From Octopus sinensis (Eukaryota), in contig NW_021825705.1 of the NCBI RefSeq assembly GCF_006345805.1, positions 1-14,680 on the forward strand: 14,680 bases of DNA, given 5' to 3'. Within the stretch, counting starts at the first letter, position 1. Each line of letters begins with the position of its first letter. The notes under the pieces were generated by a model. That model was not told where the DNA came from. It did not search any database and saw only the letters and a program-made list of their open reading frames with translations. Shown piece by piece: positions 125-10,720 of this stretch. The position numbers and the translations under genes were made by a program.

Positions 125-370
125 TTACTTTATATAATTAGGGTTCAGTAAAACAGAACTTTTAGAAATAGTAGCCAAATAATTTAGCCATTTCCTCTAC
201 TGCTATTTCTAAAAGTTCGGTGTGGGGTGAAGCAAATTTTTTTGCGGAACCCTAATTATATAAAGTAATGTTTAAATTTACCGTAAATGGTCCTTTTACA
301 TACTGAACACTACTTGGTAAAATTATTAATTACTAATTAATTAATTAATGTTACCCTTATTATTATTGAG
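125..370 (-). mobile_element. Hairpin-containing interspersed element, copy 1 (unclassified; opposite orientation to copies at 3103 and 10536)
   Basis: Perfect 22-bp inverted repeat 125-146/247-268 with a nested 18/19-bp inverted repeat 156-174/200-218. The tail 270-370 (AAATGGTCCTTTTACATACTGAA..TACTTGGT) aligns by eye to the reverse complement of 10540-10615. Flanked by microsatellites on both sides. Confidence 0.75.
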
Positions 371-456
371 TATATATACTTATATATATATATATATACG
401 TTTATATATTCGTTTTGCAAGATTCTTAATGTGAAATCGTATGTTGAAACATGATT

Positions 457-567
457 TTGTATCTTATATAGCAAATGCCATCACCTACAGCCTTGTATCC
501 TATATACCAAATACCATCACCTGCGGCCTTGTATCCCATATAGCAAATATCATCCCCAGAATTGTAT
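457..567. repeat. Degenerate 36-bp minisatellite, about 3 units
   Basis: Units start with TTGTATC at 457, 493 and 529 (TTGTATCxxATATAxCAAATxxCATC...), plus a TTGTAT stub at 562. Confidence 0.85.
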
Positions 568-779
568 GCAAAATTAACTTCAACCTTCCTCTGGCATAGA
601 GCTGTATCATCTCTGCAAACTTTTATTCCACATTCTTTTTCTCACAAAATTATAAATGAACTGCCACAGACATCTTCACAGCTAATAAAATTGGAACGTC
701 AGTTTAATGAAAAGCACATTCAAATAAACATTCAACCAAGAAATCGATTACTTTTTAACTATCAACAGACAAACACTAG

Positions 780-1040
780 CTAATCAAAATTGTTATTCTG
801 TTGGCTAAGCGACCAACAGAATAACAATTACAGGATGAAACGAAATATCAGCCCTATCCAAATCCTGCGAAAACAACGAAAGTAGCATTTTTCGTATTCC
901 AGAGAACTCTAAACTTCTATTTAGACTTGATGCCCTCTTCTATGCACAAGAGCAAACACCTGTTGCAAAGAAAATATTTATTTACAACTGACAGCTCTAT
1001 CATCTGCGCCCAATAGTATCCGGATCTCTGTACCCAGTAA
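780..1040 (+). pseudogene. Degenerate Penelope-like retroelement reverse transcriptase fragment (N-terminal motifs)
   Basis: Frame from 825 reads QLQDETKYQPYPNPAKTTK...NFYLDLMPSSMHKSK, and after a frameshift HLRPIVSGSLYP (1001-1036). This matches the order of the PLE RT motifs L.D...Y, FYGLPK.HK and LRPIVS. Confidence 0.6.
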
Positions 1041-1157
1041 TGGAGAACCAACCATAAGTTTCACATCATAAATTTGGAATAAAAATTAAACGCATAACAT
1101 TTTATTGTTAACGGGCGAATTGATTTTTCACCATTTTCAGTATTCCTACATGTGTCT

Positions 1158-1494
1158 GAAGGCGCGTGGCTCAGTGGTTAGAGCGTCGAGCTTACGATCG
1201 TGAGGTTGTGAGCTCGAATCCCAGACCTGGCTGCGTGTTGTGTTCTTGAGCAAGACACTTTATTTCACGTTGCTCCAGTTCACTCAGCTGTAGAAATGAG
1301 TTGCGACGTCACAGGTGCCAAGCCGTATCGGCCCTTGCCTTTCCCTTGGACAACATCGGTGACGTGGAGAGGGGAGGCCGGTATGCATGGGCGACTGCTG
1401 GTCTTCCATAAAACAACCTTGCCCAGACTTGTGCCCCAGAGGGTAACTCTCTACGTGCAAACACATGGTCAGTGTCTGACCGAAGGGGGTCACC
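1158..1494 (+). mobile_element. tRNA-derived SINE (family A), apparently full length, with 10-bp TSD
   Basis: A box TGGCTCAGTGG 1167-1177, B-box-like GCTCGAATCC 1212-1221, core motif CTTGAGCAAGACACTT, 3' stem-loop GGTCAG-TGT-CTGACC. TSD ACATGTGTCT at 1148-1157 and 1495-1504. Confidence 0.9.
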
Positions 1495-2000
1495 ACATGT
1501 GTCTATGGATGTATGTATAAATATGAATACGCTAGCATGTTGATATATAGACTTGTATTCCTCAAGGTGAGAGCCCAAATGTGCACATACGATTTTGTAT
1601 TCATATATTTCTATGTTGTTTTGTTCGCATGGTTTTCAGAACATGCAGTCGAATAGTTTCAAATTATTACACATATTTTTGGGCTATGCAGGCTTAAAAC
1701 AAATGTGGGATATAGTATCGCTTTTACTTTGGTATTTATGCATTGTTGTATTTACGAATTTATCATACGTTCATATAAGTTTTGACTATTTCTGAAATAT
1801 TTTTCAAATGCTTTTTACTGTCTGATGTTCATGATATATATATATATATACATACGTACAACATGTCCCCAAACTCGCTGATGGGATTCAATTTTTAATA
1901 ACTTCCTTAACTTTACAAATAACTGCATGAAATTTTGACACAATATAAAGAACATAATGGAAGTTAATAAGCACAAGTCAAAGTTTGCAACACCACTACA

Positions 2001-2241
2001 TCATATGTGAAAAGTAGCATCGCTTAAATAGCAGCCATTTTCGACTTCGAACGCCCGTGCTCTTTCCAGAACTTGTACCATAACACCCTCAAGAGTTTCA
2101 GACCCCACTTCTCTGATTTCTCTATTGATGTTCTCCTTCAGTTGCACCAGGGTCCCTGGTTTGTTGACGTAAACAATCTCTTTCAGGTATCCTCAAAAGA
2201 CAAAATCAGGGCTAGTCAAGTTTGGGGGAACGTGAATGCCA
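2001..2241 (-). pseudogene. Transposase C-terminal remnant (inverted copy)
   Basis: Minus strand reads WHSRSPNLTSPDFVF*GYLKEIVYVNKPGTLVQLKENINREIREVGSETLEGVMVQVLERARAFEVENGCYLSDATFHI*. Confidence 0.85.
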
Positions 2242-2261
2242 TTCAAAGTAGACCTTACACA

Positions 2262-2540
2262 TGGTTCCCGCTACATGGGGCAAATGCTCATACCGCAAAG
2301 GAAACAATGCAGTTGCAACGGCAGTGCTTTGGAGAGAGAATAATCTCCTGCTACAGCAATGTCAACTGCCCTTCACGTTCCCCAGATTTGACTTGCCCGG
2401 ATTTTTTCTTGTGGGGATACTTGAAAGAGAGGGTCTACGTCAACAAACCAGAGACGCTGGTGCGACATCAACAGAGAAATCAGAGAAGTGGGGTCTAAAA
2501 CTTTTGAGAGTGTTATGGTAAAAAGTTTTGGACAGAGCAT
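2262..2540 (+). pseudogene. DD41D transposase catalytic-domain remnant
   Basis: WFPLHGANAHTA...CPSRSPDLTCPDFFLWGYLKERVYVNKPETL corresponds to WFQQDGA..H / WP.RSPDL.P.DFFLWGYLK. There are 41 residues between the mutated second Asp position and the third Asp. Deletions follow 2460. Confidence 0.88.
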
Positions 2541-8543: not shown

Positions 8544-8623
8544 TCATGACATTTACAAAAGCTTCCGTATCCAACAATGTCATTACGTTTATCTACGTAT
8601 CAAATGTCAGGGGATTCTGTAAA
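8544..8623 (+). CDS. Candidate internal exon (phase 1 to 0)
   Basis: CAG| at 8543; MTFTKASVSNNVITFIYVSNVRGFCK; donor AAA|GTAAGA at 8624. In phase only with the 8434 donor. Confidence 0.25.
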
Positions 8624-8852
8624 GTAAGATGTTTTAGATAGAGAGTATATTTGTAAATAAACAAAGCTAATCGATCGTATAGTTGTAGGGAATAGAGTTA
8701 ACGTAAATAAAGTGTAAACTGTGTTGCCTTTTGTAGAGCTTTTCTCACATTATTTGTATTCAAATGCATTCCGAACAGCGAGTTTGTGTTTAATATCTTT
8801 AATTGATCTTTATAGCTCAAAGATTGAATATATTGACGTTTTGCATTAATAG

Positions 8853-9351
8853 ATCGCAGCAGAACATCAGTTTGTAATAGGAAACATCGCAGCAGAACAT
8901 CAGTTTGTAATAGGAAACATCGCAGCAGAACATCAGTTTGTAATAGGAAACATCGCAGCAGAACATCAGTTTGTAATAGGAAACATCGCAGCAGAACATC
9001 AGTTTGTAATAGGAAACATCGCAGCAGAACATCAGTTTGTAATAGGAAACATCGCAGCAGAGCAGAACATAGTTTGTAATAGGAAACATCGCAGCAGAAC
9101 ATCAGTTTGTAATAGGAAACATCGCAGCAGAACATCAGTTTGTAATAGGAAACATCGCAGCAGAACATCAGTTTGTAATAGGAAACATCGCAGCAGAACA
9201 TCAGTTTGTAATAGGAAACATCGCAGCAGAACATCAGTTTGTAATAGGAAACATCGCAGCAGAACATCAGTTTGTAATAGGAAACATCGCAGCAGAACAT
9301 CAGTTTGTAATAGGAAACATCGCAGCAGAACATCAGTTTGTAATAGGAAAC
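8853..9351. repeat. 33-bp minisatellite, 15 units (14 identical, one 37-bp variant)
   Basis: Unit ATCGCAGCAGAACATCAGTTTGTAATAGGAAAC. Unit 7 (9051-9087) has an extra AGCAG and lacks one C. Confidence 0.98.
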
Positions 9352-9641
9352 CTTAAAAATAGATTAATCCCAATAGGCAACAATATTCAAATATGTTTGG
9401 AGAAAGGCAAGAGTTGAAGAGAATTTAAAGTCTATACAAACTTAGATGAAGTATCCAACTTACACGAACGCACTCAAGCATACACGCACGCACGCACGCT
9501 CAAACACAGAGTGGAACCCTCACACACGCGTATTTGTTATTCGGAGATATAACCATCATAAGGTACGTAACCATCCATTTAAAATTTGTGATCTGATTAA
9601 ATGTATATGTATTCACAGAGGATTCCATAAATTACACTTAG

Positions 9642-9723
9642 AATTTGGAAAATTCAGAAAAATTGCGTGCAAATAATGGAAGAACTGTTTTGCAGAATAC
9701 AGAAAAGAGAAAACCTACAAAAG
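9642..9723 (+). CDS. Candidate internal exon (phase 0 to 1)
   Basis: TTACACTTAG| then NLENSEKLRANNGRTVLQNTEKRKPTK, donor AAG|GTACAA. Purine-rich, but the acceptor is weak. Confidence 0.2.
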
Positions 9724-9749
9724 GTACAACTGTCATTATCAGTCCATCA

Positions 9750-9944
9750 GGAGGCCCGACGAAATTCATAACGGTATTTCGCCCGTCGCTACTTTCTGAG
9801 TTCAAATTCCACCGAGGTCGACTTCGCATTTCATCCTTTCGGAGTCGGTTAAATAAGTACCAGTGGAGTACGTGGGTCGATGTTATCGATTTACTCCCTC
9901 CCACAAAATTTTAGGCCTTGTGCTAACAGTACAACGGATTATTA
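9750..9944 (+). mobile_element. SINE family C, 5'-degenerate monomer
   Basis: CGGTATTTCG..TCTGAGTTCAAATTCCACCGAGGTCGACTT..TAAGTACCAG..GGCCTTGTGC matches 7779-7950. Confidence 0.88.
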
Positions 9945-10338
9945 AGTTCATCGGGAGTATTTATTTTAAACAAGCAATAGAATGAGAGAAAGAGAGAGAG
10001 AGAGAGAGAGAGTGAAACGAGCAGGATAAAAGAGAATTTCTGTCGTAAATTCGCTTAACAAAAATGAATTGCACAAAATTTTTTATCGTTATTCGTATGT
10101 AATCTCAATTCTGTTACGGATAATTAAACTAATCAATTCGTCTCCAGATACACTTTTATATACATGCATACCTATATACACCACACACACACACACACAC
10201 ACTCATACTTACATAGTTAAATATTATATGTGTCTGTCTAGATATGAAATTATATGTATAAGAATACATAAAACAGTCAAATCTGCACATATATACATAC
10301 ATGCATACATACATACATACATACATACAAACACAAAT

Positions 10339-10445
10339 ACTCTGTTGTTGATGTTGAAAATCCAATAAAGGAGACTCGGGTCTGGGTTAGAAACCGGTTC
10401 TTCCTCTATTGGCAAGAATATTTTAAATAAACTGAATAATGACAT
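10339..10445 (+). other. Short microsatellite-flanked repeat with degenerate hammerhead-like 3' half
   Basis: GAAACCGGTTC at 10390-10400 (GAAA plus palindromic ACCGGT) after a short stem; CUGANGA replaced by CCAATAA. Lies between (ATAC)n and (TA)n. Confidence 0.3.
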
Positions 10446-10535
10446 GCAGTATGTATATCTATCTATCTATATATATATTATATATATAAAAACATCTATA
10501 TGTATATATATATATATATATATAATATTATATTT

Positions 10536-10720
10536 CAACAATTGAGGGTAAAATTAATTAATTAATCAATTTCACCAAGTATTCAGTATGCAAAGGGACC
10601 ATTTAAGGCGAATTCAAATTATTACATTATATAAAAGGGCTTAAGAAAATAAATTACTTTGCCGCATGCGGCAAAGTAATTTATTTTACTAAGCCCTTTT
10701 ATATAATGTAATAATTGAAT
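10536..10720 (+). mobile_element. Hairpin-containing interspersed element, copy 3, with 100-bp spacerless palindrome
   Basis: Palindrome 10617-10716 centred on GCCGCA|TGCGGC with 48/50 pairs matched. Leader is homologous to the reverse complement of 270-370. (TA)n on both sides. Confidence 0.85.

What the first reader, a model, noticed from the sequence alone, without database searches (positions are those of the whole stretch)
125..10720. Three diverged copies of a microsatellite-associated hairpin element whose arms match within each copy
Seen: 125-370 (-), 3103-3390 (+) and 10536-10720 (+) share one architecture. Each has an AT-rich leader (AATTxAGGxTAAAAT..TTTxAxCAAGTxxxCAG), then a 100-200-nt nested inverted repeat, next to (TA)/(CA) microsatellites. 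Copy 1 arms are TTACTTTATATAATTAGGGTTC with a perfect complement; copy 3 arms are TTACATTATATAAAAGGGCTT with a perfect complement, so differences between copies occur on both arms. Copies 1 and 2 share an inner GAAATAGxxGxCAAAT motif. No ORF, Pol III boxes or terminal IRs were seen. Inference: either a structured RNA kept by compensatory change or a hairpin regenerated by fold-back synthesis at each mobilisation. It may be a non-autonomous partner of the neighbouring Penelope-like elements. This is my best candidate for an undescribed system.
Basis: partly seen in the sequence, partly recalled or inferred. Interest (0 to 1): 0.75.

Follow-up and report, generated by a model that had tools for sequence, protein, structure and literature searches.

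The report
Two-armed hammerhead retrozyme insertion ends
The three hairpins are real, but they are the cut-short, back-to-back ends of three related protein-free repeats that carry a predicted self-cutting RNA and were likely pasted into TA microsatellites by a Penelope-type jumping-gene enzyme, a known layout.

Summary
The three hairpins exist but are not a hairpin gene. Each is a short insertion of one of three related non-coding tandem units (F1 583 bp, F2 about 460-500 bp, F3 559 bp; 8,797 motif hits for F1+F3). Each unit carries a type I hammerhead motif. Insertions are two head-to-head arms in (TA)n. One arm starts at the unit's long end, the other about 75-110 nt inside (F3: 34 of 35; position-ordered sample: 18 of 19), which leaves the 'leader' as a one-sided tail. 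This is the published Penelope inverted-repeat-plus-tail layout, and the units fit non-LTR retrozymes. The arms start identical and decay with family age (0.9%, 5.8%, 15%), so their pairing is not kept by compensatory change. Junctions vary and show microhomology, which favours priming from both cut target strands over simple fold-back. The conserved structure lies elsewhere: the hammerhead, and a three-helix 3' element around the two start sites. No coding partner was found. The scan reported this two-armed pattern earlier in this genome and in others.

The parts
200..369 (-). Copy 1 long arm (family F1, unit positions 1-169), including the one-sided tail; the hammerhead strand (RNA sense) is + here
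   Evidence: 161/169 identical to a natural F1 unit; mapping
125..199 (+). Copy 1 short arm (F1 unit positions 102-196, 19-nt internal deletion); reaches 27 nt further into the unit than the long arm
215..308 (+). Predicted long-range helix H2 in copy 1 (5' strand 215-224, 3' strand 299-308), enclosing the short start site
316..355 (+). Predicted terminal hairpin H3 in copy 1, just before the long start site
3101..3269 (+). Copy 2 long arm (family F2, unit positions 1-173), with tail; RNA sense is -
   Evidence: 143/169 identical to a natural F2 unit
3270..3399 (-). Copy 2 short arm (F2 unit positions 77-210); old, 74% identical to its long arm
10534..10667 (+). Copy 3 long arm (family F3, unit positions 1-134), with 78-nt tail; RNA sense is -
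   Evidence: 99% identical to a natural F3 unit
10666..10720 (-). Copy 3 short arm (F3 unit positions 79-134); mirror junction with a 2-nt overlap at 10666-10667
10719..10782 (.). (AT)n target tract right of copy 3; TA-rich tracts also at 10450-10533, 3398-3462 and about 370-400
   Evidence: for the tract beside copy 1

Best explanation
The three hairpins are truncated insertions of three related non-coding hammerhead-bearing tandem repeats (non-LTR retrozymes), likely copied into TA microsatellites by a Penelope-type reverse transcriptase-endonuclease. Shown: unit structure, hammerhead motif, (TA)n flanks, one long plus one short end, variable junctions with microhomology, shared alleles in both arms, neutral decay of the arms. 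Inferred: the unit is transcribed on the hammerhead strand as a multimer or circle. A Penelope protein, probably a dimer, binds the three-helix 3' element and cuts both strands of (TA)n. Each 3' end primes reverse transcription, one at the long site and one about 75-110 nt inside. The two cDNAs stop at unrelated points and are joined head-to-head by microhomology. When both stop early, the result is a 190-300-bp hairpin with a one-sided leader, as in this window.
For: Architecture: 34 of 35 complete two-armed F3 insertions pair a long and a short end, 1 is long-long, none short-short. In a position-ordered sample it is 18 of 19; F1 18 of 21, F2 14 of 26 with 10 unclear. Target: 68 of 70 F3 outer ends are TA-rich vs 10% background. 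Hammerhead core intact in 118/135 F3, 27/36 F1 and 17/26 F2 regions, with different but paired stems I and III in each family. Junction overlap of 2 nt or more in 12 of 16 non-insert junctions vs 18% by chance. The short arm holds sequence absent from a sub-unit long arm in 6 of 34, 4 clear cases of 19 and window copies 1 and 2. At least 5 single-armed copies start at the short site with no long arm visible. 27 sample-private alleles occur in every covering unit of both arms. Literature: PLE protein cuts and extends both strands, starts at two internal RNA sites that define the tail, and is modelled as a dimer (PMC11167929). Inverted 5'-truncated copy, tail and (TA)n bias: PMC8557442.
Against: No coding partner was found. 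The units do not match the GIY-YIG elements in 30 loci; the only hits were unrelated neighbouring insertions of these same families. The tail is 75-110 nt, against 30-40 nt published. Mirror junctions are commoner than chance: 3 of 19 (after removing one mapping artefact) and 7 of 34 (4 of them pulled in by the query); copy 3 is one. In vitro, both strands used both start sites, which alone would not give strict long-short pairing. 15 of 37 junctions could not be anchored and 6 carry inserted bases. Arms are closer to each other than to the nearest other insertion in only 5 of 36. Cleavage, transcription and circles were not shown. Rfam found no hammerhead in 8 sources. In the 2026 preprint only 1 of 9 predicted elements cleaved.
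Confidence: 0.72

Rival explanations
1. Same element and enzyme, but one priming event. The cDNA folds back on itself, the second strand is resolved at the TA-rich short site by the endonuclease, and later one-sided deletions at the palindrome centre create the uneven junctions.
For: Mirror junctions are in excess and copy 3 is a perfect palindrome. The short site is itself TA-rich like the target. Self-priming was proposed in PMC3846280 and endonuclease resolution of the tail in PMC8557442. Central deletions in long palindromes use microhomology (recalled, no call).
Against: It needs one-sided losses of up to about 1.5 kb (L302: long arm 61 nt against about 1,560 nt). Junctions are uneven even where the arms show 0 differences (L106, L109, L117, L119). 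Single arms start at the short site.
Confidence: 0.2
2. The hairpin is a functional structured RNA or small-RNA precursor kept by compensatory change.
For: Strong folding; arms differ between copies on both sides.
Against: Differences between copies are family differences copied into both arms. Arm-arm divergence rises with family age: 0.9%, 5.8%, 15.2%, against 2.6%, 8.1%, 18.6% to other insertions. Every junction inspected differs. Rfam miRNA matches are all below gathering score.
Confidence: 0.03
3. A DNA element (MITE, foldback or Helentron-type) or a satellite spread by recombination.
For: Inverted arms, no ORF, tandem arrays of up to at least 12 units.
Against: The ends are unequal, the interior is the same unit truncated at random, each unit keeps a hammerhead motif, and arrays are dispersed with fixed outer ends in (TA)n.
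Confidence: 0.05

Closest known systems
Metazoan non-LTR retrozymes (Cervera and de la Pena 2020, PMC7229834, passages and part 3 of 6 read; Li, Clavereau and Pollet 2026, bioRxiv 10.64898/2026.07.22.740005, parts 1-3 of 5 read, supplements closed)
   Same: Non-coding, low-GC (28-35%) tandem units, each with a type I hammerhead with a short palindromic helix III; Penelope elements co-occur in the genome.
   Different: Units are longer than the typical 170-400 nt, though within the preprint's 51-972 bp range. F1 has a 54-nt stem II region. The parts read do not describe two-armed insertions with fixed long and short ends. Expression, circles and cleavage are untested here.
Insertion layout of endonuclease-positive Penelope-like elements (Craig et al. 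2021, PMC8557442, passages, section 11 and parts of the supplement read; Arkhipova et al. 2013, PMC3846280, passages read)
   Same: Partial tandems, an inverted 5'-truncated copy, a tail at one end, (TA)n bias.
   Different: No ORF; tail 75-110 nt rather than 30-40 nt. By eye, the 3' end of Hydra-1_Obim in the supplement does not resemble these units.
Anolis Poseidon element in vitro (Frangieh et al. 2024, PMC11167929, parts 1-2 of 4 read)
   Same: Two internal start sites define the tail; both target strands are extended; AT-rich target; hammerhead upstream.
   Different: There the sites lie in the ORF start and no strand preference was seen. Here the RNA is non-coding and the ends are paired long with short almost strictly.
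L1 twin and dual priming (PMC2837659, passages read)
   Same: Two cDNAs primed from opposite target strands and joined.
   Different: L1 twin priming gives non-overlapping pieces with an internal deletion. Here the arms overlap in sequence and start at two fixed sites.

Membership tests
Non-LTR retrozyme | Small non-coding unit in tandem repeats | tested here: met
   Units of 559, 583 and about 460-500 bp; arrays of up to at least 12 units; longest Met-to-stop frame 39-99 aa
Non-LTR retrozyme | Type I hammerhead in each unit | tested here: met
   Own descriptor: core intact in 118/135, 27/36, 17/26 regions; full fold criteria in 107, 20, 10. Rfam gave no hammerhead hit
Non-LTR retrozyme | GC below 45% | tested here: met
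   28-35%
Non-LTR retrozyme | Self-cleavage and circular RNA | not testable with these tools
   Only assembled contigs of runs of uncertain type were available
Non-LTR retrozyme | Homology to the terminal repeat of an autonomous Penelope element | tested here: inconclusive
   No match to the elements in 30 GIY-YIG loci out of 147 matches; Hydra- and Naiad-type elements were not searched in this genome
Penelope-type insertion layout | Inverted 5'-truncated copy with a tail at one end | tested here: met
   34 of 35, 18 of 19; tail longer than the published 30-40 nt
Penelope-type insertion layout | (TA)n or AT-rich target | tested here: met
   68 of 70 ends vs 10% background
Autonomous Penelope-like element | ORF with reverse transcriptase and GIY-YIG endonuclease | tested here: not met
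   No such ORF in the units or attached in loci L001-L090
MITE / foldback DNA transposon | Equal terminal inverted repeats around a fixed interior | tested here: not met
   Unequal ends and freely variable junctions
miRNA or hairpin-RNA gene | Conserved hairpin with maintained pairing | tested here: not met
   Arms decay with age; Rfam matches below gathering score

The most novel reading that the evidence does not exclude
A covarying three-helix RNA element (hairpin H1, long-range helix H2 enclosing the short start, hairpin H3 just before the long start) is the binding platform that places the two active sites of a dimeric Penelope reverse transcriptase on one circular retrozyme RNA. Nearly every insertion would then be an obligate double-primed event with one long and one short end. 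That would explain the Penelope tail and inverted repeat, and give a minimal protein-free substrate to test it.
Probability: 0.4. Interest if true: 0.6.

Novelty: new member of a known kind. Interest (0 to 1): 0.33.

Why it matters
As a discovery it is modest: three more retrozyme families in a genome where the scan has already noted many. Its use is as a natural data set. How Penelope elements make their tail and inverted repeats is still open, and thousands of young copies with two fixed ends, plus a 3' fold kept across three families of different age, give specific sites to mutate in an existing in vitro assay.

Tried and rejected
Rfam scan of the window and 7 loci: only sub-threshold miRNA and snoRNA matches, no hammerhead. 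ARAGORN: no tRNA. Coding partner: PF01541 search gave 147 matches; 30 loci and 10 extended regions hold RT+GIY-YIG ORFs up to about 780 aa. The 30 loci showed no similarity to the units; the 10 extended regions were read only for ORFs, flanks and hammerhead cores. Two other repeats in the window (5375-5725, 6640-7110) were followed in the hope of reaching a parent ORF; none appeared within 1.5 kb in 30 and 20 loci. No RNA holder was listed; contigs of four runs of uncertain type cover parts of the F3 unit but cannot show strand, ends or circles. A first hammerhead descriptor missed F1 because its stem II exceeds 45 nt (found). A hammerhead-like reading of the leader itself was dropped: it lacks G8 and is the 3' strand of H2. 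A fixed hairpin sub-element that moves as a unit was rejected because copy-1-like hairpins all have different junctions. A look-up of earlier findings by the F3 sequence returned nothing. Literature searches listed no paper on these families; Dfam and Repbase could not be searched, so prior annotation there is not excluded.
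Full report
Observation. The three inverted repeats are at the stated places and fold far better than shuffles (z -6.8, -4.2, -11.3). Copies 1 and 3 are clearly homologous; copy 2 is only marginally alike pairwise. 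Arm identity is 53/55 in copy 3, 47/50 plus a 19-nt deletion in copy 1, and only 69/93 in copy 2. The host is a 2.7-Gb genome, probably an octopus; that label comes from earlier scan notes and my recall of its SINEs, and was not tested.

What they are. Searches of the own genome with each copy gave 205, 371 and 2,750 first-look candidates, 40 scored each. Most hits match the leader and first arm and then continue into a longer sequence. That sequence is a tandem unit: F3 559 bp, F1 about 583 bp and F2 about 460-500 bp. F1 and F3 align over most of their length (353 of 480 aligned positions). A motif shared by F1 and F3 occurs 8,797 times, against 1 for the reversed control. The units are 28-35% GC with no frame above 99 aa. 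On the strand opposite to leader-then-arm, each unit carries a type I hammerhead motif 260-295 nt from the long end. The core is intact in 118 of 135 F3, 27 of 36 F1 and 17 of 26 F2 regions (de-duplicated by context; a few repeats may remain). Stem I is UGAG/CUCA, CUUGUG/CACAAG and AUUGUA/UACAAU, and helix III is a short palindrome in each family.

Insertion anatomy. Of 46 distinct F3 insertions, 42 were complete: 35 two-armed and 7 single-armed. Of the 35, 34 begin at unit position 1-5 on one side and 79-97 on the other; 1 has two long ends; none has two short ends. That set was partly chosen by the query, so I took a position-ordered sample from the first 100 matches listed. It held all 18 opposite-strand clusters not yet examined plus 2 same-strand clusters. 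19 of the 20 were two-armed, 18 long-short and 1 long plus position 114. F1 gave 18 long-short, 1 long-long and 2 unclear; F2 gave 14, 1 long-long, 1 short-short and 10 unclear; 35 of 56 F1 and 24 of 50 F2 insertions were single-armed or other. 68 of 70 F3 outer ends lie in TA-rich tracts, against 10% background. The 'leader' is simply the stretch between the two start sites.

Is the hairpin conserved? No. Median arm-to-arm divergence is 0.9% in F3 (n=36), 5.8% in F1 (n=19) and 15.2% in F2 (n=21), against 2.6%, 8.1% and 18.6% to other insertions. The arms start alike and decay like the two LTRs of a retroelement. In F3, 30 of 151 sample-private alleles are on both arms, 27 of them in every covering unit. 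This points to one template sequence per insertion, either a circular monomer or a uniform source array; 'private' is relative to 46 insertions only.

How the arms arise. Of 37 F3 junctions, 15 could not be anchored and 6 carry 5-35 inserted bases. 12 of the other 16 overlap by 2-3 nt, against 18% expected (p about 1e-6). A simple fold-back of the long arm cannot supply sequence that the long arm lacks, yet the short arm does so in 6 of 34, 4 clear cases of 19 and in window copies 1 (unit 196 vs 169) and 2 (210 vs 173). At least 5 of 27 inspected single-armed copies start at the short site with no long arm visible, while a few others hide a tiny second arm. Against this, mirror junctions are in excess (3 of 19; 7 of 34), copy 3 among them. 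They may be true fold-backs, or two cDNAs running off the same RNA end. Fold-back followed by one-sided central deletion remains the main rival.

The structure that is conserved. Folded separately, the last 200 nt of the hammerhead strand of 15 F1/F3-type copies and of 11 F2 copies give the same order of helices: hairpin H1, long-range helix H2 enclosing the short start, hairpin H3 just before the long start. H2 is GUUCAGUAUG/CAUACUGAA in F3 but CUAGCGUG/CACGCUGG in F2. In the F1/F3 alignment 97.3% of cells pair and 4 of 25 pairs change on both sides; no shuffle of 500 reached the covariation score and 6 of 500 reached the pair count. G-U outnumbers A-C on this strand (F1 H2 71 vs 3; F3 H3 93 vs 1; F2 H2 39 vs 12). 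Caveats: copies are related, helices were defined from this strand's fold, and the F2 alignment alone shows only 1 double change in 43 pairs.

Comparison with known systems. PMC8557442 describes partial tandems, an inverted 5'-truncated copy, a 30-40-bp tail at one end and (TA)n bias for Penelope-like elements. PMC11167929 shows cutting and extension of both target strands and two internal start sites that define the tail. PMC7229834 and bioRxiv 10.64898/2026.07.22.740005 define non-LTR retrozymes and link them to Penelope elements. PMC4209133 (part 1 of 4 read) already notes paired hammerheads on opposite strands 100-700 bp apart. The genome holds RT+GIY-YIG ORFs of about 780 aa, so candidate enzymes exist, but none examined shares sequence with these units. 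The preprint's supplements were closed and may list related families.

Verdict. Real, explained, and a new member of a known kind. Earlier scan notes report the same two-armed pattern in this genome and in others; I tested it independently here. Interest 0.33.

Noticed in passing
window 5375-5715 (+), core at 5606: 3' end of another abundant repeat (3,676 first-look candidates) with a hammerhead motif whose first core reads CCGAUGA; copies end at two sites, one followed by an extension. No parent ORF within 1.5 kb.
   Followed up: partly
window about 6610-7110: End of a third abundant repeat (2,576 first-look candidates, about 95% identity) that ends in (TA)n and sometimes has an inverted partial copy.
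   Followed up: partly
window about 1857-3098: Decayed Tc1/mariner-like element: matching terminal repeats, the right one split by a SINE-like repeat (2643-3047), transposase-like remnant at 2028-2498 (motif recalled; no Pfam hit), internal inverted duplication 2141-2227/2380-2466. Copy 2 sits at its right end.
   Followed up: partly
window 788-829: Perfect 17-bp inverted repeat with an 8-nt loop inside an AT-rich stretch (540-1100); possibly another head-to-head junction.
   Followed up: no
window 8853-9351: 33-bp minisatellite, 15 copies, 97% identical.
   Followed up: no
window 7544-7950, 9750-9945, 11913-12413, 1157-1500, 13626-13836: Several copies of SINE-like repeats, also present in many unrelated loci.
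   Followed up: no
L223 (G000:C6:12730200-12735500) and others: A 781-aa RT+GIY-YIG open frame recurs at the same length in at least 5 places, with a cysteine linker like Neptune-clade elements (clade label recalled); likely a recently active Penelope-like family.
   Followed up: partly
L121, L123, L129, L130: F3 arrays of 10-13 units forming inverted structures of 5-6.5 kb; L121 differs by only 0.07% between arms.
   Followed up: yes
F1 unit positions 283-374 (L077): Hammerhead with a 54-nt stem II region, about twice that of F2 and F3.
   Followed up: partly
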